Below, piece after piece: positions 1,295 through 57,617 of a stretch of 64,000 bases of DNA. The notes beneath the pieces are model-generated. The model was given only the letters and a program-made list of their open reading frames with translations, searched no databases and was not told the DNA's origin. This DNA is from Myxococcales bacterium (GTDB lineage: Bacteria; Myxococcota_A; UBA9042), in assembly GCA_009692425.1 (NCBI GenBank), contig SHZF01000006.1, positions 5,704-69,703 on the forward strand, given 5' to 3'. How positions within the stretch are numbered: position 1 is the stretch's first letter; each line of letters begins with the position of its first letter. Both the position numbers and the translations under genes were made by a program.

Positions 1295-1310
1295 TGGCAC
1301 GCACCTTGCT
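1295..1310 (+). promoter_or_regulatory. Candidate sigma-54 (RpoN) promoter, TGGCAC-gcacc-TTGCT, 49 nt upstream of the comM ATG
   Basis: Exact -24 TGGCAC at 1295-1300, 5-nt spacer, -12 TTGCT at 1306-1310. An unusually AT-rich patch (1262-1285, ctatgttcagatcatacgatcg) lies just upstream in a ~70% GC background. A GGGAG RBS sits 7 nt before the ATG at 1359. Confidence 0.5.
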
Positions 1311-1358: not shown

Positions 1359-2903
1359 ATGCAGTCCAGGATCCTGAGCGCCGCGGTCGTCGGTGTCGAT
1401 GCGCGGCTGGTCGAAGTGGAATGCGACGTCTCCGGCGCCGTGATGGCTTTCGATACCGTCGGGCTACCCGAACTGTCGGTGCGCGAGGCGCGCTACCGGG
1501 TGCGCTCGGCGATGCGGGCTTCGGGCCTGAAGTTCCCCGGCCGCAGCGTCCTGATCAACCTGGCGCCCGCCGACCTGCGCAAGGACGGGACCTGCTACGA
1601 CCTGCCGCTGGCGCTCGCCCTGCTGGCGGCCGATGGGACCCTGCCGCCGGGCGTGCTGGACGGCTTCGTGGTCGTCGGCGAGCTGTCGCTGATGGGCGGC
1701 GTGCGGCCCGCGGTCGGCGTCCTCGCGATGGCCCAGTTGGTGCGCGACCTCGGCTTGCGCGGCATCCTCTGCCCTGCGGACAACGTCGCCGAGGCCCGCG
1801 CAGTCCACGGCATCGAGGTGCGTGCGGCCCAGATGCTGGCCGGCGTCGTCGACTGCCTGCGCAGCGGTGCCGCATGGCCGGAGCCCGCGTGTATGCCGCG
1901 ACCTGTGGCACCGCGCTCCCACGACCTGTGCTGGTCCGACATCCGCGGTCACGCTGTCGCCAAACGTGCGCTTGAGGTGGCGGCGGCGGGCGGGCACAAC
2001 GCCGTGATGGTCGGCACGCCGGGCACCGGCAAGACGATGCTGGCCCGTCGCCTGCCGTCGATCCTGCCGCCGCTCGACGCCAACGAGGCCGTCGAGGTGA
2101 CGAAGGTGCACTCCGTGGCTGGCTTGCTCCACTCCGGCGCGGGCCTCCTGACCGAGCGGCCCTTCCGCGCGCCGCACCACACCATCAGTGCGGCTGCGCT
2201 CGTGGGCGGTGGGTCGATCCCCAAGCCGGGCGAGGTGTCGCTGGCCCACCGCGGTGTGTTGTTCCTCGATGAGTTGGCTGAGTACCCGCGCTACGTGCTG
2301 GAGACCCTGCGGCAGCCGCTCGAAGACGGCACGGTCACGGTGACGCGCGCCCGCCAAGTCGCCCGGTTTCCGTCGCAGGTCATGCTCGTCGCCGCCCTGA
2401 ACCCGTGCCCGTGCGGCCGCCAAGGCTCAGCTACCCATGCGTGCACGTGCTCGCCGGTCGCGCTCAATCGGTACCGCGGCCGGCTGTCGGGTCCCTTGCT
2501 CGACCGCATCGACCTGCAGGTGCGGGTACCGGCGCTCGAAGCGGGCGCGCTGCGCGGGGGCCCCGATGGCGATACGTCCGACACGGTCCGAGGTCGGGTG
2601 TGTGCCGCACGGCGTGTGCAGTACGACCGGTTCGGGCCCGGCGTGACGAACGCCACCGTGCCTATGCCACGCCTGCGCAACATGAGCCCGCTCGCGACGC
2701 CCGTCCACGACGTCCTGCTGCGCGCACTCGAAATGTTCGGCCTGTCGCCGCGTGCCCACGACCGCATCTGGCGCGTGGCGCGCACGATCGCGGACCTCGG
2801 CGGGGTGCATGCCGTCGAGATTGGCCACATTGCCGAAGCCTTGCAATACCGCTGCTTCGACGAACCCTGCGCGCCCTTGGCGACCCGCGCCGCAGCCGCA
2901 TAG
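1359..2903 (+). CDS. comM: ComM/YifB-family Mg-chelatase-like AAA+ ATPase (competence protein ComM homolog)
   Basis: Translation [25 protein letters not shown]..., Walker A GTPGTGKT, and the C-terminal Zn-ribbon-like CPCGRQ....CTCS of YifB/ComM. Start chosen at 1359 (RBS) rather than 1338. Confidence 0.85.
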
Positions 2904-35140: not shown

Positions 35141-35385
35141 GCTTCATCCCGTGGCGGTGCCCTGGCTGCCGCACTGCCGCACCCTGCATTTTCCCGTACG
35201 GCCCTGCCGGGTCAAGGAAAACCGCGTGGGTCGGCAGATCGCGTCCACTTTGGTCGGCGGTCCGCCTCGCCCCCAACCTGGGTGAGACCGTGACTGAGAC
35301 GGGGACCGAGACCGAGACCGCCCCAGTCGCCTGGAATCTCTCGTGACCTGTGAATCGGAAATAAGGATTCGCATTCGCGGCTCGT

Positions 35386-35401
35386 TGGCACGCTCGTTGC
35401 A
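35386..35401 (+). promoter_or_regulatory. Candidate sigma-54 promoter, TGGCAC-gctcg-TTGCA (perfect consensus), 45 nt upstream of the radC ATG
   Basis: -24 TGGCAC at 35386-35391 and -12 TTGCA at 35397-35401. An AT-rich patch (35351-35375, gaatcggaaataaggattcgcattcg) lies immediately upstream. A GAGGAA RBS precedes the ATG at 35446. Confidence 0.55.
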
Positions 35402-35445: not shown

Positions 35446-36084
35446 ATGGCGCAGTTGTGCACATACTTGGCGCCGCGGAGCGCCGCGGGTTCCGGATCCG
35501 TCCAAACACTCTCCGATGTCGACCTTGTCGCGGTCTTGATCGGGCCGACGCCAGACGACCGGTGGCGGGCCTGCGCCCTGGTGGCCCGCCAGGCGAGCCT
35601 CGCCGCGCTCGGGGTGACCCTCCGCGCGCCGGGCCACGATCTCGATGGCGCGTCGCACAGGCGGTTGCTTGCCGCTGTCGAGTTGGGGTGCCGCGCGCTG
35701 GCCGACAAGTGCGATGCGGCGCAATTGCGGCGGGTCCAGGACCTCGTGGCGCGCTACCGGGACCTCGCCCTGTCCGACGCCGAACAACTCGTCGTCGTAT
35801 GCCTCGATGCAGGCCGACATCTGGTGGCTGAGTATCGATTTCACGGCGGACTCGACAGCGTCACGGCGCCGCTGCCCCTGCTGCTGCGCCGCGTGCTGGA
35901 GTCGGGCGCTCCCGGCTTTGCGCTGGTCCACAACCATCCGAGCGGCGACCCGCGGCCGAGCGCGGCCGACCGTGCGTTTACGGAGCGGGTCGCCGCGGCG
36001 GCGCGCCTGTGCGATCTGCGCCTTTTCGAGCACGTCGTGGTGGCTGCCCGTGGCTGGGCGCGGGTACCCGGCGGTACGTCGTGA
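35446..36084 (+). CDS. radC: RadC-family JAB/MPN domain protein
   Basis: N-terminal LSDVDLVAVLIG, plus the JAMM motif HNHPSGDPRPSAAD. Confidence 0.85.
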   Translation: MAQLCTYLAPRSAAGSGSVQTLSDVDLVAVLIGPTPDDRWRACALVARQASLAALGVTLRAPGHDLDGASHRRLLAAVELGCRALADKCDAAQLRRVQDLVARYRDLALSDAEQLVVVCLDAGRHLVAEYRFHGGLDSVTAPLPLLLRRVLESGAPGFALVHNHPSGDPRPSAADRAFTERVAAAARLCDLRLFEHVVVAARGWARVPGGTS

Positions 36085-49978: not shown

Positions 49979-50572
49979 TCAGTGGTCCCCGGTCAGGCGG
50001 TCGAGCACGATGGCTGCGGCCGCGCGGACGGACAAGTGGTTGTAGCGCGGGCCGGCGGGGCTGCCGTCGAGCGCGTCGAATGCGGGCGCACGGCCCACGG
50101 GCGGCAGGCGCAAGTCGGCGGTCGCGACGACCGAGGGTGCCAAGCCCCAGCCCGTGCCGAACACGACCACAATGGGTGCTCCGTTCGGGTCGCCCAGTCG
50201 TTCGCGCAGTTCCGCAAACGGCGTCGTATCGCGTTGCATGCGGGCGCCCGTCATCACCAGCACCGGCGCGCGGCCGGTGCGTTCGCGTACGTCAACGCGC
50301 ACGGCGTCGAGCGACGGCAGGGTGCACAGCCGCCGCATGGCGTCGGCGCGCCGCTCATGGCGGCTGCCTTGGCCTTGGGTCCAATGCCCCACGACCTCGT
50401 CCACCATGCGCTGTTGCAGCGTGACCGGAGTCACGATGTAGACCGCGCTCGCACCAAACGTTCGGCCAGACCGAGCCAGGTCGTGCAGGTCGACGTTCGT
50501 GATGGCTGTCGCCACCACCTCCCCGCGCCGGTTGAGCACGGGGTGGTGAACGAGGGCGAGAAAGATAGCCAT
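49979..50572 (-). CDS. Conserved hypothetical protein in the trmD-rplS cluster, possibly with a SPOUT-like fold
   Basis: N-terminal [36 protein letters not shown] and C-terminal [11 protein letters not shown]....[16 protein letters not shown] resemble SPOUT methyltransferase motifs. There is no firm family call. Confidence 0.45.
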
Positions 50573-50585
50573 GTGCTCCTGGAAG

Positions 50586-51401
50586 TCAACCGCTTTCTGT
50601 CGGTTTCGCGAGTCCTGTGGTCATTTCGTCGACCACCGGTGCCGCCGACAAGCCTGCCAACTGGGCCCGATCGTCGGGCGACAGCGGCGCGCTGGCAAGC
50701 AGATCGGGCCGCCAGCGCGCGGTCCGTGCCAACGACTGTGCGCGGCGCCAACGCACGATCGCCGCGTGATCGCCCGACAGCAACACCGCGGGCACGTCGC
50801 GGCCCTGCCACTGCCGCGGCCGCGTATAGTGCGGGTGCTCGACGAGGCCATCGGCGTGCGATTCTGCCGACAGTGACGCCGCGTTGCCGACCACGCCCGG
50901 CAGCAGGCGGGCGACCGCTTCGACGACCGCCATCGCGGCGACTTCGCCCCCTTGCAGCACGAAGTCGCCGAGCGACAGGACCTCATCGCAGAGGTCTTCA
51001 ATGCGCGCGTCGAAGCCCTCATAGCGTCCGCACAGCAGCACGAGGCCACCCGCTTCGGCGTACTGCTCGGCCCTGCGCTGGTCGAAACGGGCCCCGGCCG
51101 GCGACAGCAGCACGGTACGGATCCCGGCCGGCCGCCCCACGCACACCGCCGCGAGGCACGCGGCGATCGGCTCCGGTTTCAACACCATGCCCGCCCCGCC
51201 ACCGAACGGGGCGTCGTCGACCGTGTGGTGCCGGTCCATCGCAAACGCGCGCCAGTCGTGGACCGCAAGGTCGATGCGCCCGGCCGCGATCGCCTTGCCG
51301 ATCAGGCTCTCCCGGCGCAGCGACTCGAAAAGCCCGGGAAACAGCGTGAGCACGTCGAACCGATAGCACGGCGGCACGGCGGCCGCGGCGGGGGCTTGCA
51401 T
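50586..51401 (-). CDS. trmD: tRNA (guanine37-N1)-methyltransferase
   Basis: RFDVLTLFPGLFE.....GKAIAAGRIDLAVHDWR.FA.DRHHTVDDAPFGGGAGMVLK...LLCGRYEGFD.R.....DEVLSLGDFVLQGGE. Confidence 0.9.
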   Translation of the reverse strand: MQAPAAAAVPPCYRFDVLTLFPGLFESLRRESLIGKAIAAGRIDLAVHDWRAFAMDRHHTVDDAPFGGGAGMVLKPEPIAACLAAVCVGRPAGIRTVLLSPAGARFDQRRAEQYAEAGGLVLLCGRYEGFDARIEDLCDEVLSLGDFVLQGGEVAAMAVVEAVARLLPGVVGNAASLSAESHADGLVEHPHYTRPRQWQGRDVPAVLLSGDHAAIVRWRRAQSLARTARWRPDLLASAPLSPDDRAQLAGLSAAPVVDEMTTGLAKPTESG

Positions 51402-51407
51402 GGCGGC

Positions 51408-51932
51408 CTACTCGCTGCGCCAGTCGTGGATGTCGCGCACGACGATCTCGCCGGCCACGCGGCCGAGTTCCTCGATGGCGGGACTGCCCGGCGGCAGCAG
51501 GACGCTGCCGCCCGCGTCAAGCGTCAGGTGCAGCATGTCGTGCCCGCCGGCCACCACGATGCCGCGCACGACGCCGACGCGCGCCCGCGTATCCGCATCG
51601 AGCACGGCGGCCCCGACAAGGTCGGCGAGCCAGATCTCGTCGGCACCCGGTGGCGGCAGTTGGTCGGCATCGACCTGGAGCGTGCCGTGCGTGAGCCTGG
51701 CCGCCGCTTCGCGATCGTCGATGCCGCGCAACGCCAAGATCGGTCCGCCGGTGGCGCCGCGCACACTGTGGATCGCGAACGTGCGTGCAGGTTGCCCTGG
51801 CACGTGGACGTCGATGGCCTCGACGGCGTCCAACACGGTCGAACCGGGGTCGTGCAGGTGCACCCGCAGTTCGCCATGCACGCCGTGGGGCCGTCCGATG
51901 CGCCCGACCTCGATGCGGCGCGGTTCCGCCAT
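51408..51932 (-). CDS. rimM: Ribosome maturation factor RimM
   Basis: MAEPRRIEVGRIGRPHGVHGELRV... and the C-terminal PRC barrel. The upstream in-frame extension to 52289 is Arg-rich junk. Confidence 0.8.
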   Translation of the reverse strand: MAEPRRIEVGRIGRPHGVHGELRVHLHDPGSTVLDAVEAIDVHVPGQPARTFAIHSVRGATGGPILALRGIDDREAAARLTHGTLQVDADQLPPPGADEIWLADLVGAAVLDADTRARVGVVRGIVVAGGHDMLHLTLDAGGSVLLPPGSPAIEELGRVAGEIVVRDIHDWRSE

Positions 51933-52027: not shown

Positions 52028-53074
52028 TCACAGGGTGATCTCGTCTTTCAACTCGCGGCCCATCAGGTTGCGCAGCGCGTCCAGCGGCGCCAGGCCCTCG
52101 TGCAGCACGCGGTAGGTCTGCTCCAGGATGGGCGCTTCGACGCCGAGTTCCTGCGTCAGGCGCCACGCGGAACGGCTGGTGAGCACGCCTTCGGCCACGG
52201 CCGTCATCGACGCGAGGATGGCGCCGATCGACTCCCCGCGTCCCAGCCGCAGCCCCACCGTGCGGTTGCGCGACAGGTCGCCGGTGCACGTCAACACGAG
52301 GTCGCCGATGCCGGAAAGCCCTTGCAACGTAAGTGGATTTGCGCCCTTGCGTACTGCGATCCGGGTGATTTCAGCGAGCCCGCGCGTGATGAGGCCGGCG
52401 CGCGCGTTGTGGCCGAAGCCGAGGCCATCGGCGGCCCCGACTGCGATCGCGATCACGTTTTTCAGGGCGCCACCGACTTCGACGCCCTCGACATCGTTGG
52501 ACGCGTAGCAACGAAAACGGTTGCCCGACAGTTCCTTCTGCAGCCAGCGCGCCAGCCGTGCGCTGCGGGCCGCCACCGTGACAGCGGTCGGGCTGTTGAT
52601 GGCCACTTCGGCCGCAAAGGACGGCCCGGACAGGTAGGCGAGCCCCGCGTGCATACGGCGCGGCAGCACGCGCTCGTAGATTTCGCTGATGAGCTCGAGT
52701 GATTCGTTGTCGATCCCCTTGGAACAACTGACGATTACGTGTTCGTCCGTCAGCCATGGTTCCATCCGGCGCGCCAGCCCGGCCACGTGCGGAGTTGGCA
52801 TCACGGTGAGCAGCACGCGCGAGCGGCGCACGCACGCTTCGAGGTCCGCGGTCGCGTGCAGGGCCTCGGGCACCAAGTGGCCGGGGAGGTAGCGCACATT
52901 CTCACGGCCGTCTTGGATCTGTACCGCGACGCTCGGATTGTGTGCCCACAGCAGCGTCGGCTTGCCGCAGCGTGCGGTGTGGATGGCGAGTGCTGTGCCC
53001 CAGGCACCGGCGCCGACCACGCCGATCGGGTAGGCGTCGCGCAGCGGGAGTCCCGTGGGCAGCGCGGCGGTCAT
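52028..53074 (-). CDS. gpsA: NAD(P)H-dependent glycerol-3-phosphate dehydrogenase
   Basis: IGVVGAGAWGTALAIHTA.....SCSKGI...LSGPSFAAEVA....GALKNVIAIAVG. Start at MTAALPTGL. The upstream part of the 52028-53887 ORF is junk. Confidence 0.9.
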   Translation of the reverse strand: MTAALPTGLPLRDAYPIGVVGAGAWGTALAIHTARCGKPTLLWAHNPSVAVQIQDGRENVRYLPGHLVPEALHATADLEACVRRSRVLLTVMPTPHVAGLARRMEPWLTDEHVIVSCSKGIDNESLELISEIYERVLPRRMHAGLAYLSGPSFAAEVAINSPTAVTVAARSARLARWLQKELSGNRFRCYASNDVEGVEVGGALKNVIAIAVGAADGLGFGHNARAGLITRGLAEITRIAVRKGANPLTLQGLSGIGDLVLTCTGDLSRNRTVGLRLGRGESIGAILASMTAVAEGVLTSRSAWRLTQELGVEAPILEQTYRVLHEGLAPLDALRNLMGRELKDEITL

Positions 53075-54549
53075 GGACGGCCTCCGGGGCGCGGTTCGTG
53101 GGCCCGCGCGGCGTGGTACAGGTCGTGCAAGCTGCGGTCGAACGCGGCCGGGCGGCAGCGGCGACGGGCCCAATCGCGCAAGGCGCGCACCTGCTCCGCG
53201 TAGGTTTCCACGAGCGGCACCGATTTGGAAAGCACCGCCTCGACGTCGTCGGTCGTCAACGCGCGCCCTTCGCTGAAGGCAACGGCCAGCGCTTCGACCA
53301 GCGCTTCGGCCACCTCGGCGCCGGTCAGCTTGTCCGCGGCATCGGCGAGGCGGCCCGTATCGAAGTCCGCCGCAGCGCGGCCCGAGGCCCGCAGGTGGAT
53401 GGCGACGATCTCTTCGCGCACGCGGCGGTCGGGCAGGTCGACAAAAAACGTCTCGTCGAAGCGGCCCTTGCGCAGCAGTTCCGCCGGCAGGTGGTCGGCC
53501 CGGTTCGCCGTCGCCGCCACGAACACGCCGGGCCGCGGGCGGTCGAGCCAGGTGAGCAGCGCGCCGAACAGTCGGGCACCCGACTCCGACGGCGCATCGC
53601 CGACGGTGGCGAAAGCCTTGTCGATCTCGTCGATCCACAGCACGCACGGTGCCATGGCTTCGGCGACCTGCAGCGCCCGCCGCAGGTGCTCGTCGGGCGA
53701 CCCGTGCTCGGCGTAGAGGCGTGCGAGGTCGAGGCGCGCCAACGGCAGCCCCAGTGCGCCGGCAGACGCCTTTGCAATCAGGGATTTGCCGCAGCCCTGC
53801 ACGCCGACCATGAACGCCCCGCGCGGCGGCGGCAGGCCATAGGCGCGGGCGGCGGGTGTCAGGGCCTCGCGCCGCCGCAGCAGCCACGCCTTGAGCGCAT
53901 CGAGCCCCCCCACGCGGTCCAGTTGCGGCACGTCGTCGACCACTTCGAGCACGCTCGACCGGGCCACAAGATCGCGTTTTTCGTGCTGGAGTTCGGCGAC
54001 TGCCACCGGCCCGGCCAGCCCCGCCTGGCGCACGCGCTTGAGCGCCCGCCGCGCCTGACCAAGCGTCAGCCCGGCCAGCGCCGCGACCGCCGCGTCGGTG
54101 TGTCCGGCGTCGGCGCCAGCAAAGGCGGCTTGCGCGAGTGGCGCCAGTTCCGGTGGGCCGGGCAGGGGCAACTCCACCACGGCCAGGTCACGGTCGAGGT
54201 CGGTCGGTGGCCACGGTCGGGCGGCCAGCAGGACGACCGCATGGCCGGCACGCTCGATCGCGTCGAGGTGTTCGAGCAACAGGCGCGCGAACCCGGCGTC
54301 GCCCAGCAGTCGATCCGCCTGCGGCAGCGCGAGCACGGTGGGCCGCTCCTGCTGGACCAGTCGTTCGAGGAGTTCCCGCGCCACACCGGCAGGCTCGAGA
54401 GCGCCGAAAGTCGCCACTTGGACCGTCAGCGGCGACCCCTGTGCAGCGACGCCGAGCACGCGCACCGCGTCCCGTTCGTCGCTATGGAGCACCCCGACCA
54501 GCGGGTAGCGGGCGCGCAGCCGATCGCGCAGCGGGGTGGCCCGGTCCAT
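53071..54549 (-). CDS. AAA+ ATPase (492 aa): N-terminal ~215-aa degenerate nucleotide-binding-like domain plus a classical AAA module (GVQGCGKS / VLWIDEIDKAF / TANRADHLP..LLRKGRFDE)
   Basis: Walker A, Walker B, sensor-1 Asn and Arg-finger seen in translation. A 4-nt start overlap with gpsA downstream. The start lies 4 nt after the stop of the NtrC-family regulator upstream. Confidence 0.75.
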   Translation of the reverse strand: MDRATPLRDRLRARYPLVGVLHSDERDAVRVLGVAAQGSPLTVQVATFGALEPAGVARELLERLVQQERPTVLALPQADRLLGDAGFARLLLEHLDAIERAGHAVVLLAARPWPPTDLDRDLAVVELPLPGPPELAPLAQAAFAGADAGHTDAAVAALAGLTLGQARRALKRVRQAGLAGPVAVAELQHEKRDLVARSSVLEVVDDVPQLDRVGGLDALKAWLLRRREALTPAARAYGLPPPRGAFMVGVQGCGKSLIAKASAGALGLPLARLDLARLYAEHGSPDEHLRRALQVAEAMAPCVLWIDEIDKAFATVGDAPSESGARLFGALLTWLDRPRPGVFVAATANRADHLPAELLRKGRFDETFFVDLPDRRVREEIVAIHLRASGRAAADFDTGRLADAADKLTGAEVAEALVEALAVAFSEGRALTTDDVEAVLSKSVPLVETYAEQVRALRDWARRRCRPAAFDRSLHDLYHAARAHEPRPGGRP

Positions 54550-54552
54550 GGC

Positions 54553-56019
54553 CTACCCGCCCGGCCGCGGCGGTCTGCCGACCGGCGCAGGCACATCGAT
54601 GGCGTACTGCTTGATCTTGTACTGCAGGTTGCGCGGCGAAATGGCCAGCAGGTCGGCCGCGTGCGTGCGGTTGCCGGCCGTCTGCTGGAGCGCCGCGAGG
54701 ATCAGCGCGCGCTCCGTCGCCTCGACTGCGTCGGGGATCGACAGCGTGTCGCGCGCGGGCAATGCGACGGCCTCGTGCCCACCCGGGCTGCGATCCAGGC
54801 GCACGAGTTCCGCCGTCAGGACGCCCCCATCGGCCAGCACGCAGGCCTGCTCGATCACGTTGCACAGTTCGCGCACGTTGCCCGGCCAGTGGTGGGCGAT
54901 CAGCTTGGCGCGGGCCGCGGGCTGCACCGCGCGAATCTGCGTGCCGAGTCGTTGGTTCGTCTTCTCGACGAAGTGTTCGATCATCATGTCGATGTCGTCG
55001 CGCCGCTCGCGCAACGGCGGCACGGCGAGTTCGATCACGCTCAGCCGGTAGTACAGGTCTTCGCGGAACCCACCGTCGCGCACCCGGAGGCGCGGGTTCA
55101 CCGCCGCCGCCGCCAGCACGCGCACATCGACTGCGATCGGCCGGTTCGAACCAACGCGGCGCACCTCGGATTCCTGCAGCACGCGCAGCAGCTTCACCTG
55201 GAGCGAGAGGGGCAGGTCGATGATCTCGTCGAGGAAAAGCGTGCCCCCGTGGGCCTCCTCGAACAAGCCACGGCGATCCTGGTGGGCATCGGTAAAGGCG
55301 CCGCGCACGTGGCCGAACAGCTCCGATTCCAGCAAGTTCGGCTGGATGGCGCCGCAGTTCACCGCGACGAACGGCTGGCGCGCCCGCGGGCTGGCGAGAT
55401 GCAGCGCGCGGGCGACGAGTTCCTTGCCACTGCCCGACTCGCCCGTGATCAGCACCGTCGAGGCAAACCGCGCGATGCGTTCCACCTGGCGGAACAGCGC
55501 GAGGATGGGCGCCGTCTGGCCGACCATGCCGTAGAAGCTACGCCCCTGCGGAATCACGTCCTCTTCTCTCACGGTCGCTGCGTCGTCCGCCGCCACATCG
55601 ACGACCAATGGCGGCGGCGCGAGCGCGTGCTGGCGAGCCTTCTCCACCGCGAGCCGCACCTTGAGTTCGGCTTCGGCGAGGCGGAACGGTTTCGACAGGT
55701 AGTCGACGGCGCCCAGCCGAATCGCTTCGAGCGCCGTTTCGAGGCTGCCATACGCGCTCATCACGACGGTCGGTGGCAGGCGCTCCTGACGGGCCAGCAC
55801 TTCGATGACTTCGAGGCCGGTCATGCGCGGCATCTGGAGGTCCATCAACAGCAAGTCCGGCATGCGTTGGCGCAAGGCGAGCAGGGCCTGGGCGCCGTCA
55901 TGGGCGCACTGGGTCTCGATGCCTGCCCGCTCGAGGTGGTCGGCCACCAACGCAGCGAACGGCACCTCGTCATCCACGATCAGCACGAAAAGTGGCTGCT
56001 TGCCGACGGGAATCGCCAT
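54553..56019 (-). CDS. Sigma-54-dependent response regulator (NtrC family): receiver domain, AAA+ sigma-54 activator domain and Fis-type HTH
   Basis: Receiver LIVDDE...DLLLMDLQMP. EBP core VLITGESGSGKELVARALH, the GAFTGA motif variant GAFTDA, ESELFGH. C-terminal HTH AGNRTHAADLLAISPRNLQYKIKQY. Confidence 0.9.
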   Translation of the reverse strand: MAIPVGKQPLFVLIVDDEVPFAALVADHLERAGIETQCAHDGAQALLALRQRMPDLLLMDLQMPRMTGLEVIEVLARQERLPPTVVMSAYGSLETALEAIRLGAVDYLSKPFRLAEAELKVRLAVEKARQHALAPPPLVVDVAADDAATVREEDVIPQGRSFYGMVGQTAPILALFRQVERIARFASTVLITGESGSGKELVARALHLASPRARQPFVAVNCGAIQPNLLESELFGHVRGAFTDAHQDRRGLFEEAHGGTLFLDEIIDLPLSLQVKLLRVLQESEVRRVGSNRPIAVDVRVLAAAAVNPRLRVRDGGFREDLYYRLSVIELAVPPLRERRDDIDMMIEHFVEKTNQRLGTQIRAVQPAARAKLIAHHWPGNVRELCNVIEQACVLADGGVLTAELVRLDRSPGGHEAVALPARDTLSIPDAVEATERALILAALQQTAGNRTHAADLLAISPRNLQYKIKQYAIDVPAPVGRPPRPGG

Positions 56020-56096
56020 CCTTGGTTGCGCCTCACGAGACTGCGCTTTGTGTTCACCGCGCCGCAGGCGTGGCACTCAATTGGCACGCCAATGTA

Positions 56097-56372
56097 CTAG
56101 GAAGCCTGCTTGCGCGCCTCGTCCAAGAAGGCCACCCGCGTGTCGTGCAGGAGCCGATCGAGCAGCGCCGCCTCCTCGGGGGTCAAGTTGCCGTGCGTCT
56201 TGGCGCGCAGCATGACGAGCATGTCGATCGACTGGCGCGCCATCTCGATGTTCGAGTCGCCGTGGTGGCCGGTGGGGTCGGGCACGCGACCCAAGTGCAC
56301 CATCGTGGAGCCCGCCAGGGACAAGATGAAGGTCGAGAAGTCGATGCTGCCCGGAGCGTTCGTCGAGGTCAT
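56097..56372 (-). CDS. Small conserved protein (91 aa), DUF1844-like
   Basis: IDFSTFILSLAGSTMVHLG....MARQSIDMLVMLRAKTHGNLTPEEAALLDRLL matches the pattern I recall for DUF1844 family proteins. Same strand, 77 nt upstream of the regulator. Confidence 0.55.
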   Translation of the reverse strand: MTSTNAPGSIDFSTFILSLAGSTMVHLGRVPDPTGHHGDSNIEMARQSIDMLVMLRAKTHGNLTPEEAALLDRLLHDTRVAFLDEARKQAS

Positions 56373-56600
56373 GGCCGGCCTTTCCGCGTGCGCGTTGGAA
56401 TGTCGGCGCGTGGTCGGCGGTTGTCAAGGTGCGCGCCAAGCCTCGGCGCGCCCTCCTCGACGGGATACGGGAGCCGCGCTACGATGCTGCACGCCCACGG
56501 ACCGGCGCTCACGCCCGCTGCGCCAGTAGCGGGCGCCCGCGTCCCCCACACGTCCTTTGCCTCTGGCGCCTGCCGCGTGCGCCCTGCGAGCCCGCCGCGC

Positions 56601-57617
<1,017 letters not shown>

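What the first reader, a model, noticed from the sequence alone, without database searches (positions are those of the whole stretch)
53071..56372. DUF1844, NtrC-family sigma-54 activator, second tandem-AAA ATPase and gpsA as one transcription unit
An enhancer-binding protein (itself AAA+) is followed, with a 3-nt gap, by a classical-clade AAA ATPase whose N-terminal half looks like a degenerate second nucleotide-binding domain. That ATPase in turn overlaps gpsA. The regulator has GAFTDA instead of GAFTGA in the sigma-54 contact loop. In NtrC1/PspF studies that substitution class alters or abolishes sigma-54 engagement, so this regulator might act differently. With two strong sigma-54 promoters in the window, this is a candidate cognate activator, with no evidence yet.
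Basis: partly seen in the sequence, partly recalled or inferred. Interest (0 to 1): 0.5.

Follow-up and report, generated by a model that had tools for sequence, protein, structure and literature searches.

The report
Ordinary sigma-54 activator beside Ycf46-like ATPase
The four genes are real and form a conserved cluster in an uncultured myxobacterial lineage, but the regulator's "odd" GAFTDA loop is a common natural variant that has been shown to work, so nothing suggests it behaves unusually.

Summary
On the minus strand lie DUF1844 (56372-56097), a REC/sigma-54-AAA+/HTH response regulator (56019-54553), a 492-aa AAA ATPase after a 3-nt gap (54549-53071), and gpsA after a 4-nt ATGA overlap (53074-52028). 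The array then runs on into rimM-trmD-RNA methyltransferase. The same order recurs in four complete related loci and in part of a fifth.

The interpretation of GAFTDA is not supported:
- Asp occupies position 5 in 48 of 49 orthologues.
- It occurs in 23 of about 148 motifs in a sample of 50%-identity cluster representatives found without a word index.
- NorR G266D, which creates exactly GAFTDA, still forms open complexes.
- The sigma-54 activators FlgR and DVU2106 carry Asp at position 5 naturally (DVU2106 reads GAFTDA).

The operon has a conserved TTGACA-type promoter, not a -24/-12 one. The regulator-ATPase link is limited to one clade of the ATPase family. Nothing ties the regulator to the two genuine-looking sigma-54 promoters, which precede comM-like and radC-like genes. 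Verdict: a new member of known kinds, of low interest.

The parts
56398..56427 (-). Conserved promoter-like element TTGACAAC-N16-ACATTC (TTGACA at 56427-56422), 26-55 nt upstream of the DUF1844 ATG. It is not a -24/-12 promoter.
   Evidence: The same 30-nt pattern (TTGACAAC...[AT]CATTC) lies 59-116 nt upstream of DUF1844 in the window, L081, L082 and L089; L083 lacks it. No conserved GG-N10-GC site was found in the cluster.
56097..56372 (-). DUF1844 small protein (91 aa), first gene of the array.
   Evidence: PF08899, E 8e-26. It lies directly upstream of the regulator in all five complete loci and overlaps it by 4 nt in L082 and L083. A distant DUF1844 (48% identity, L169) has no such neighbour.
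56071..56087 (+). Direct repeat TGGCAC-N5-TGGCAC in the DUF1844-regulator spacer. It is also a 1-mismatch -24/-12 look-alike pointing antisense.
   Evidence: It is not conserved in L081-L083 or L089, where the spacer is absent or different. Significance unknown; probably chance.
54553..56019 (-). NtrC-family response regulator and sigma-54 activator (488 aa): REC domain, AAA+ domain, lid, Fis-type HTH.
   Evidence: Pfam. No NCBIfam equivalog reaches its cut-off; the best is AtoC at 420 bits against a cut-off of 714. Invariant among 49 orthologues: phospho-acceptor D60, S88, Walker A GESGxGKE (193-200) and Walker B D264/E265. D16, D17 and K110 are conserved in at least 90%. Closest solved relatives are LuxO, NtrC4 and NtrC1.
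55285..55302 (-). GAFTDA, the sigma-54-contacting L1 loop (aa 240-245).
   Evidence: G240, A241 and T243 are invariant; F242 is F in 46 and Y in 3; D244 is D in 48 and G in 1; A245 is A in 48 and S in 1.
54556..54591 (-). Clade-specific C-terminal tail PAPVGRPPRPGG, after the HTH.
   Evidence: The ..P[AG][PQ]VGRPP[RK] tail is present in nearly all full-length hits of P0001-P0059. It is absent from nearly all paralogues at 51% identity or less, which end at the HTH; P0064 and P0089 keep it. G481 is invariant and R482/P483 are conserved in at least 90%.
53950..54549 (-). ATPase residues 1-200: degenerate AAA+ module (alpha/beta core plus helical lid) with no Walker A or Walker B.
53071..53949 (-). 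ATPase residues 201-492: active classical-clade AAA domain plus lid and a conserved C-terminal helix.
   Evidence: PF00004. Matches p97/Cdc48 D2 at E ~1e-45. Invariant in 58 family members: K255 (Walker A), D307/E308 (Walker B), N349 and R360/R363. Pore-loop-1 is shortened and lacks hydrophobic-Gly.
52028..53074 (-). gpsA, NAD(P)H-dependent glycerol-3-phosphate dehydrogenase (348 aa). Its start overlaps the ATPase stop (ATGA).
   Evidence: NCBIfam NF000942, 407 bits against a cut-off of 257. Junction read.
49979..51932 (-). Co-directional continuation of the array: rimM (51932-51408), trmD (51401-50586) and a SAM-dependent RNA methyltransferase (50572-49979).
   Evidence: Gene calls and Pfam families. 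The same order recurs in L081-L083, followed there by rplS.
56601..57617 (+). Divergently transcribed sigma-70-family factor (regions 1.2, 2 and 4; no region 3 hit). It is a conserved neighbour.
   Evidence: Pfam. Present in the same position in L081-L083.

Best explanation
This is a conserved gene array in an uncultured Myxococcota lineage: DUF1844, a response-regulator sigma-54 activator, a Ycf46-family AAA ATPase, gpsA, rimM, trmD, an RNA methyltransferase and rplS. It is probably read from a TTGACA-type promoter that is not sigma-54-dependent.

**The regulator.** It is a conventional NtrC-class enhancer-binding protein.
- An unlinked histidine kinase would phosphorylate D60 of the receiver domain (inferred).
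- The AAA+ domain would then form a ring, hydrolyse ATP and use its L1 loop to remodel sigma-54 holoenzyme at promoters elsewhere in the genome (inferred from family membership).
- The Asp in GAFTDA is the normal, selected state of this family and is compatible with sigma-54 activation. Conservation is shown here; competence is shown experimentally in other proteins.
- The clade-specific GRPP(R/K) tail after the HTH most likely adds a minor-groove DNA contact (inference).

**The ATPase.** It has an inactive AAA-like module followed by one active classical AAA module, the architecture shared with cyanobacterial Ycf46. It most likely works as a ring-forming remodelling ATPase with an unknown substrate. 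Its co-translation with the regulator and gpsA reflects co-expression with growth and envelope housekeeping genes, not a special sigma-54 mechanism.
For: - Domain content and motifs.
- Junctions.
- Conserved synteny at 51-69% ATPase identity: window, L081, L082, L083 and L089, with L090 partial.
- Monophyly: the linked clade is monophyletic in a rough NJ tree.
- Promoter: a conserved TTGACA-type element and no conserved -24/-12 site.
- GAFTDA conservation and frequency.
- GAFTDA function: NorR G266D, FlgR and DVU2106.
- ATPase fold: N-domain results.
- Ycf46 relationship: full-length homology to cyanobacterial proteins, one of them named 'stress-responsive protein Ycf46' by UniRef.
- Sigma-54 in this organism: two exact, correctly placed -24/-12 sites make it likely that the organism uses sigma-54.
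Against: - No transcript data, so the extent of the operon and the promoter are inferred.
- Neither rpoN nor a cognate kinase is in the window (a crude motif scan).
- No target promoter or enhancer has been identified for this regulator.
- In NorR, G266D lowered ATPase cooperativity and escaped regulatory-domain repression. An Asp-type loop could therefore go with a somewhat different control logic.
- The tight and conserved regulator-ATPase coupling is not explained by 'co-expression' alone.
- The active AAA domain lacks a canonical pore-loop-1, so a threading remodeller is not certain.
Confidence: 0.7

Rival explanations
1. One reading: the Gly-to-Asp change in the L1 loop weakens or redirects sigma-54 contact. 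The protein would then act as a sigma-54-independent regulator or repressor, or under altered control.
For: Most substitutions at this Gly inactivate NorR. G266D changes ATPase cooperativity and escapes repression by the GAF domain. For VfmH (GAFTDA) no sigma-54 was found in a pull-down, and its authors left the question open.
Against: Asp is under strong purifying selection in the family, and the rest of the sigma-54 machinery is intact. Asp at this position occurs in about 15% of the motifs read among neighbouring regulator families. NorR G266D, FlgR and DVU2106 all activate sigma-54 promoters. One orthologue has Gly at this position, which suggests Asp and Gly are interchangeable.
Confidence: 0.08
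2. The regulator and the Ycf46-like ATPase are functional partners. The ATPase would remodel, disassemble or chaperone the regulator ring or its complex with sigma-54, perhaps by recognising the conserved C-terminal GRPP tail, with DUF1844 as an adaptor.
For: Gaps from a 4-nt overlap to 9 nt in three of four loci where both genes are called (52 nt as called in L083), conserved across the whole clade. The regulator carries a clade-specific C-terminal tail. DUF1844 is co-conserved.
Against: None of about 160 loci of the wider ATPase family has an adjacent regulator. Close relatives at 41-44% identity sit in unrelated contexts. The ATPase-gpsA adjacency recurs in another clade without the regulator, so gpsA is a partner at least as consistent. 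A 'GRP' tail next to an HTH is more simply a DNA-binding arm. No interaction data exist.
Confidence: 0.12
3. The regulator is the cognate activator of the two sigma-54 promoters in the window, which lie upstream of the comM-like and radC-like genes. This is compatible with the best explanation and is listed separately because the first reader proposed it.
For: It is the only enhancer-binding protein in the window. Both promoters are exact matches, intergenic and correctly placed. Both have GAGAC-containing repeats about 70-125 nt upstream, and the one before radC is the only such cluster in 64 kb.
Against: The sites are 19 and 53 kb from the regulator. Myxobacteria encode dozens of these regulators (own knowledge). 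The 8-9-mers shared by the two upstream regions are about what chance gives. No such element was looked for or found near the regulator's own operon. A paralogue near comM in L088 has no -24/-12 site there.
Confidence: 0.15

Closest known systems
NtrC-family response-regulator enhancer-binding proteins (NtrC1/NtrC4 of Aquifex, LuxO, AtoC, ZraR)
   Same: Same REC, sigma-54 AAA+, lid and Fis-type HTH architecture, with all catalytic and phospho-acceptor residues present. Best solved matches are LuxO, NtrC4 and NtrC1 at E 1e-83 to 1e-87.
   Different: It reaches no NCBIfam equivalog cut-off. It has Asp at L1 position 5 and a clade-specific GRPP(R/K) C-terminal tail. No kinase is adjacent.
Natural and engineered GAFTDA activators: FlgR (Campylobacter and Helicobacter), DVU2106 (Desulfovibrio vulgaris) and NorR G266D
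   Same: The same residue at the same loop position. All three are reported to activate sigma-54 promoters.
   Different: They have different regulatory domains and targets, and the NorR case is a laboratory mutant. No experiment has been done on this protein.
Ycf46 (cyanobacterial and plastid AAA ATPase, e.g. Synpcc7942_0417)
   Same: Full-length homology at 35-39% identity over more than 90% of the protein. Same length (about 500 aa) and the same two-module plan of a degenerate AAA followed by an active classical AAA.
   Different: The myxobacterial clade has lost the [TM]VG[RK]SE pore-loop-1. It sits in a DUF1844-regulator-gpsA operon, not a cyanobacterial context. The reported KaiC interaction and CO2/stress phenotypes of Ycf46 cannot be transferred.
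Type II (tandem) AAA ATPases with one inactive ring (NSF, p97/Cdc48, Pex1/Pex6)
   Same: Two stacked AAA-fold modules, only one of which has intact catalytic motifs. The active module is of the classical clade.
   Different: Here the inactive module has no nucleotide-binding motifs at all. There is no separate N-terminal substrate or adaptor domain, and the protein is only 492 aa.

Membership tests
Bacterial enhancer-binding protein (sigma-54 activator), NtrC response-regulator class | Sigma54_activat AAA+ domain with Walker A GxxGxGK(E) and Walker B DE | tested here: met
   PF00158, E 5e-67. GESGSGKE at 193-200 and D264/E265 are invariant in 49 orthologues.
Bacterial enhancer-binding protein (sigma-54 activator), NtrC response-regulator class | GAFTGA-type L1 loop competent for sigma-54 contact (F/Y at position 3, T/S at position 4) | tested here: met
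   The loop reads GAFTDA. F and T are kept. Asp at position 5 is classed as functional in PMC3162934 and PMC4641369 and shown to be active in NorR G266D.
Bacterial enhancer-binding protein (sigma-54 activator), NtrC response-regulator class | Receiver domain with phospho-acceptor Asp, acidic pair, Ser/Thr and Lys | tested here: met
   PF00072, E 4e-26. D60 and S88 are invariant; D16, D17 and K110 are conserved in at least 90%.
Bacterial enhancer-binding protein (sigma-54 activator), NtrC response-regulator class | C-terminal Fis-type HTH | tested here: met
   PF02954, E 3e-13.
Bacterial enhancer-binding protein (sigma-54 activator), NtrC response-regulator class | ATP-dependent open-complex formation with sigma-54 holoenzyme at a -24/-12 promoter | not testable with these tools
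   This needs biochemistry or genetics. The only indirect evidence is that two exact -24/-12 sites in the window imply the organism uses sigma-54.
Named equivalogs (AtoC, NtrC, NtrX, ZraR, LuxO, FlgR and others) | Score above the curated NCBIfam cut-off | tested here: not met
   The best hit is AtoC at 420 bits against a cut-off of 714. All others are also below their cut-offs.
Classical-clade AAA ATPase | PF00004 domain with Walker A Lys, Walker B DE, sensor-1 Asn and second-region-of-homology Arg fingers | tested here: met
   PF00004, E 4.5e-27. K255, D307/E308, N349 and R360/R363 are invariant. Matches p97 D2 at E 1e-45.
Classical-clade AAA ATPase | Pore-loop-1 aromatic/hydrophobic-Gly for substrate threading | tested here: not met
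   The window has ..YAEHG--SPDE.. where cyanobacterial Ycf46 has ..STVGRSE.. and p97 has ..WFGESE...
Ycf46 family | Full-length homology (about 500 aa) to cyanobacterial or plastid Ycf46, including the N-terminal half | tested here: met
   35-39% identity over 91-94% of the query to cyanobacterial proteins. P0234 is named 'stress-responsive protein Ycf46' in UniRef. Prochlorococcus and Nostoc loci were also recovered.
Ycf46 family | Match to a curated Ycf46 model or a reciprocal best hit to a reference Ycf46 | not tested
   No Ycf46 model appeared in the Pfam or NCBIfam results. The AFDB library was unavailable.
Tandem (type II) AAA ATPase | Two AAA-fold modules in one chain | tested here: met
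Tandem (type II) AAA ATPase | Nucleotide-binding motifs in both modules | tested here: not met
   The N-terminal module has no P-loop and no Walker B. It is a pseudo-ATPase module.

The most novel reading that the evidence does not exclude
DUF1844, the response-regulator sigma-54 activator and the Ycf46-like pseudo-tandem ATPase form one regulatory machine. The second AAA ring would act on the activator, perhaps through its clade-specific C-terminal GRPP tail, or on sigma-54 complexes. That would tie sigma-54 transcription to phospholipid synthesis (gpsA) and ribosome maturation (rimM, trmD) in this myxobacterial lineage.
Probability: 0.1. Interest if true: 0.6.

Novelty: new member of a known kind. 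Interest (0 to 1): 0.22.

Why it matters
Mainly as a correction. GAFTDA should not be flagged as a defective or exotic sigma-54 contact loop, because Asp at position 5 is one of the commonest natural variants and is experimentally competent.

Three secondary points:
- The work delimits a conserved, undescribed gene neighbourhood that puts a non-cyanobacterial Ycf46 relative next to gpsA and a sigma-54 activator. This could give a genetic handle on the poorly understood Ycf46 family.
- It shows that the N-terminal half of that family is a nucleotide-free AAA-like module.
- It points to sigma-54 promoters in front of competence-type genes (comM-like, radC-like) in a myxobacterium.

Tried and rejected
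- **Sigma-54 autoregulation.** A -24/-12 look-alike upstream of DUF1844 (TGGCGCGCACCTTGA, 56438-56424) overlaps a TTGACA box that is conserved in four loci, while the GG/GC elements are not. No -24/-12 site sits at a conserved position in L081-L083.
- **TGGCAC-N5-TGGCAC repeat.** The repeat at 56071-56087 was considered as an enhancer or antisense promoter. It is not conserved, so I dropped it.
- **Public genome and metagenome scans with the ATPase.** They served as a negative control for regulator linkage, not as an orthologue census.
- **Shared enhancer motif upstream of the two sigma-54 promoters.** The shared 8-9-mers are at chance level. Only the GAGAC clustering is notable.
- **comM near a GAFTDA paralogue in L088.** There is no -24/-12 site there.
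- **Supplements of Francke et al.** I searched them for GAFTDA counts, but the stored files are truncated and uninformative.
- **AFDB fold search for a Ycf46 label.** The library was unavailable.
- **DUF1844 literature.** No functional paper was found.
- **Terminator scan.** None was found, but such scans are weak at 70% GC.
- **rpoN box and kinase H-box motifs in the window.** Neither was found (a crude regex).
Full report
**1. What is in the sequence**

Between 52028 and 56372 the minus strand carries four tightly packed genes.

- **DUF1844** (56372-56097, 91 aa; PF08899, E 8e-26).
- **A response regulator** with Response_reg, Sigma54_activat (E 5e-67), AAA_lid_14 and HTH_8 domains.
- **A 492-aa protein** with one PF00004 AAA domain at residues 247-371.
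- **GpsA.**

Reading the junctions directly gives the following:

- The regulator's TAG is followed by 'gcc' and then the ATPase ATG, a 3-nt gap.
- The ATPase TGA and the gpsA ATG share ATGA, a 4-nt overlap.
- The regulator most likely starts at ATG 56019 (488 aa), which leaves 77 nt after DUF1844.
- Independent gene calls on two public contigs carrying the identical proteins agree with these coordinates.
- They also show that the co-directional array continues with rimM (after 95 nt) and trmD. An RNA methyltransferase follows in the window.
- A sigma-70-family gene is transcribed divergently from 56601.

No terminator-like site lies anywhere in 49.0-57.8 kb. This is weak evidence in DNA of about 70% GC.

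**2. The GAFTDA loop**

The motif is at residues 240-245. Four lines of evidence bear on whether it is unusual.

*Orthologues.* In an alignment of 49 orthologues (53-75% identical), G240, A241 and T243 are invariant. F242 is F in 46 and Y in 3. D244 is D in 48 and G in 1. The phospho-acceptor D60, S88, Walker A GESGxGKE and Walker B DE are invariant in the same alignment, and K110 is conserved in at least 90%. The protein is therefore under selection as a working, phosphorylation-controlled ATPase.

*Word-indexed hits.* Of the 120 best hits, 113 read GAFTDA, 3 GAYTDA and 2 GSFTDA, and my pattern missed 2. This list favours sequences that share words with the query. It does include paralogues of about 50% identity in quite different neighbourhoods in Bradymonas sediminis and a Polyangiales genome.

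*Search without a word index.* I ran a full HMMER search against representatives of 50%-identity clusters. The 149 best new representatives gave these motif counts:

| Motif | Count |
|---|---|
| GAFTGA | 97 |
| GAFTDA | 20 |
| GSFTGA | 17 |
| GSFTDA | 3 |
| other variants | a few singletons |

Asp at position 5 thus occurs in about 15% of the motifs read among neighbouring regulator families.

*Literature.*
- Bush et al. isolated NorR G266D, which converts GAFTGA to GAFTDA. It binds enhancer DNA, forms rings, hydrolyses ATP (less cooperatively), forms open complexes and activates in vivo.
- In that study only D, N, Q, S, C and M were tolerated at this Gly, and D and N escaped repression by the GAF domain (PMC2941729).
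- Kazakov et al. list GAFTDA among the variants that maintain activity, and assign sigma-54 targets to DVU2106, which carries it (PMC4641369).
- For VfmH the question was left open.

Commonness is shown here. Function is shown in other proteins and implied here by purifying selection. I conclude the loop gives no reason to expect unusual behaviour. The residual caveat is that an Asp-type loop may go with a different coupling between the regulatory and ATPase domains.

**3. The ATPase**

- **Active domain.** Its C-terminal part matches D2 of p97/Cdc48/VAT at E about 1e-45. It keeps Walker A K255, Walker B D307/E308, sensor-1 N349 and the Arg fingers R360/R363, all invariant in 58 relatives.
- **Family.** The whole protein, including the N-terminal half, aligns at 35-39% identity over more than 90% of its length to cyanobacterial proteins of about 500 aa. 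UniRef names one of them 'stress-responsive protein Ycf46'. Scans of public genomes recovered the family in Nostoc, Microcystis, Prochlorococcus, Verrucomicrobiota, Chloroflexota and Myxococcota.
- **Fold of the N-terminal half.** AlphaFold2 with this alignment gave pLDDT 84 for the whole chain and 96.8 for residues 1-200 alone. The N-terminal model is a five-stranded alpha/beta core followed by a helical bundle.
- **No nucleotide site.** The position of the P-loop reads ..LHSDERDA.. and there is no hhhhDE.

One further detail concerns the active domain. Cyanobacterial members keep a pore-loop-1 of the form [TM]VG[RK]SE. All non-cyanobacterial relatives, including this one, are 2-3 residues shorter there and have no hydrophobic-Gly pair.

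**4. Is the regulator-ATPase pair conserved?**

Yes, but only in one clade.

- **Directly verified loci.** L081, L082, L083 and L089 (ATPase 51-59% identical) show sigma factor (divergent; L081-L083), DUF1844, regulator, ATPase, gpsA. L081-L083 continue with rimM, trmD, methyltransferase and rplS. L090 is cut at its 5' end.
- **Spacing.** Regulator-ATPase spacing ranges from a 4-nt overlap (L081) to 9 nt (L082), with 52 nt as called in L083. DUF1844 overlaps the regulator by 4 nt in L082 and L083.
- **Shared contigs.** Eighteen contig lengths are shared between the regulator hit list and the ATPase hit list. Many also appear in the DUF1844 list.
- **Tree.** In a rough neighbour-joining tree without support values, all linked members form one clade.
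- **Outside the clade.** Relatives at 41-44% identity sit in unrelated contexts. None of the other roughly 160 family loci fetched has an adjacent regulator.
- **ATPase-gpsA without the regulator.** Five loci (L002, L091, L093, L094, L103) keep the ATPase directly upstream of gpsA without any regulator. The upstream genes differ: a type II/IV secretion ATPase in L094 and a rhomboid-TPR protein in L002. Four of them form a separate clade (L002 groups elsewhere, with P0190), and none lies in the regulator-linked clade.
- **DUF1844.** A distant DUF1844 has no regulator beside it.

Two conclusions follow. The pairing with gpsA is at least as persistent as the pairing with the regulator. And the ATPase family as a whole does not depend on an enhancer-binding protein.

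**5. Promoters**

Upstream of DUF1844 the window has TTGACAACCGCCGACCACGCGCCGACATTC (56427-56398). The same 30-nt pattern, TTGACAAC...[AT]CATTC, lies 59-116 nt upstream of DUF1844 in L081, L082 and L089, while L083 lacks it. This is a TTGACA-type -35 box with a conserved downstream element, not a -24/-12 promoter. The overlapping look-alike TGGCGCGCACCTTGA has GA instead of GC at -12 and is not conserved. No -24/-12 site occupies a conserved intergenic position in the cluster. The operon therefore does not appear to be sigma-54-dependent or autoregulated through sigma-54.

**6.

Exact TGGCAC-N5-TTGC occurs twice, against 0.16 expected from shuffles. Both sites are intergenic and about 40-50 nt upstream of start codons. 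The downstream genes are a ComM/YifB-like Mg-chelatase-family ATPase (1359-2903) and a RadC-like protein (35446-36084). They look genuine and imply that the organism uses sigma-54.

The regulator studied here is the only enhancer-binding protein in the window, but nothing links it to these sites.

- The 8-9-mers shared by the two upstream regions are about what chance gives.
- The one suggestive feature is GAGAC. The only cluster of three or more GAGAC/GTCTC within 60 bp in the whole window lies 70-100 nt upstream of the radC promoter.
- The comM promoter has GGCGTCTC-N18-GAGACGCC about 100 nt upstream.

This remains a lead, not evidence.

**7.

Nearly all full-length regulators of the ATPase-linked clade end in a conserved tail..ID.P[AG][PQ]VGRPP[RK].. 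(window PAPVGRPPRPGG). Nearly all paralogues at 51% identity or less stop at the end of the HTH.

From general knowledge, a 'GRP' core flanked by basic residues is typical of AT-hooks and of the minor-groove arm of the Hin DNA-binding domain. I therefore favour an extra DNA contact. A role as a recognition tag for the neighbouring ATPase cannot be excluded, and it is the basis of the 'novel case'.

**8. Verdict**

- The anatomical interpretation is right.
- The functional speculation about GAFTDA is not supported.
- The regulator is an ordinary NtrC-class sigma-54 activator that matches no named equivalog.
- The ATPase is a Ycf46-family member with a pseudo-AAA module and one active module.
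- What is new is only the conserved neighbourhood in an uncultured Myxococcota lineage and some family-level details (pseudo-AAA module, lost pore loop, GRPP tail).
- Function beyond family membership is inferred, not shown.
- Interest is low (0.22). The most novel reading still open, a functional regulator-ATPase machine, has a probability of about 0.1.

Noticed in passing
window 1295-1309 (+) and 1359-2903 (+); 35386-35400 (+) and 35446-36084 (+): The two exact sigma-54 -24/-12 matches (2 found, 0.16 expected) sit 40-50 nt upstream of a ComM/YifB-like Mg-chelatase-family ATPase and a RadC-like gene. dprA and topA lie at about 57.7-62.6 kb, so several competence-type DNA-processing genes share this window, and two of them appear to be sigma-54-driven.
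   Followed up: partly
window 35284-35318 and 1169-1202: The only cluster of three or more GAGAC/GTCTC within 60 bp in the 64-kb window lies 70-100 nt upstream of the radC-like sigma-54 promoter. The comM-like promoter has an inverted repeat GGCGTCTC-N18-GAGACGCC about 100 nt upstream. These may be a shared enhancer; untested.
   Followed up: partly
window 54556-54591 (-), regulator aa 477-488: A conserved C-terminal tail P[AG][PQ]VGRPP[RK] follows the HTH in nearly all regulators of the ATPase-linked clade and is absent from nearly all paralogues at 51% identity or less. It resembles an AT-hook or the Hin minor-groove arm.
   Followed up: partly
window 56071-56087 (+): Direct repeat TGGCAC-N5-TGGCAC in the DUF1844-regulator spacer, which is also a 1-mismatch -24/-12 look-alike pointing antisense to DUF1844. 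It is not conserved in related loci.
   Followed up: partly
window 56398-56427 (-); L081, L082 and L089 upstream of DUF1844: Conserved 30-nt element TTGACAAC...[AT]CATTC, 59-116 nt upstream of DUF1844 in four of five loci. The downstream half does not look like TATAAT. It might be read by an alternative sigma factor such as the divergently encoded one.
   Followed up: partly
ATPase aa 279-286 (window ~53692-53715, minus strand); alignment A1: Pore-loop-1 of the active AAA domain is [TM]VG[RK]SE in cyanobacterial Ycf46. It is 2-3 residues shorter and lacks hydrophobic-Gly in every non-cyanobacterial relative, which raises doubt that these proteins thread substrates.
   Followed up: partly
L002, L091, L093, L094, L103: The Ycf46-like ATPase lies directly upstream of gpsA without any enhancer-binding protein, outside the regulator-linked clade of the family (four of the five loci form one clade). 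This recurrent ATPase-gpsA adjacency hints at a link to glycerol-3-phosphate or phospholipid metabolism.
   Followed up: partly
P0054 (orthologue-level hit, 56% identity): The one family member that reads GAYTGS instead of GAFTDA. It is either a natural reversion to Gly or a mis-assigned paralogue or chimera.
   Followed up: no
window 49979-51932 (-): rimM-trmD-methyltransferase (followed by rplS in related loci) sits directly downstream of gpsA with no rpsP in front. The usual rpsP-rimM-trmD-rplS operon seems to have been re-headed by the DUF1844-regulator-ATPase-gpsA block.
   Followed up: no
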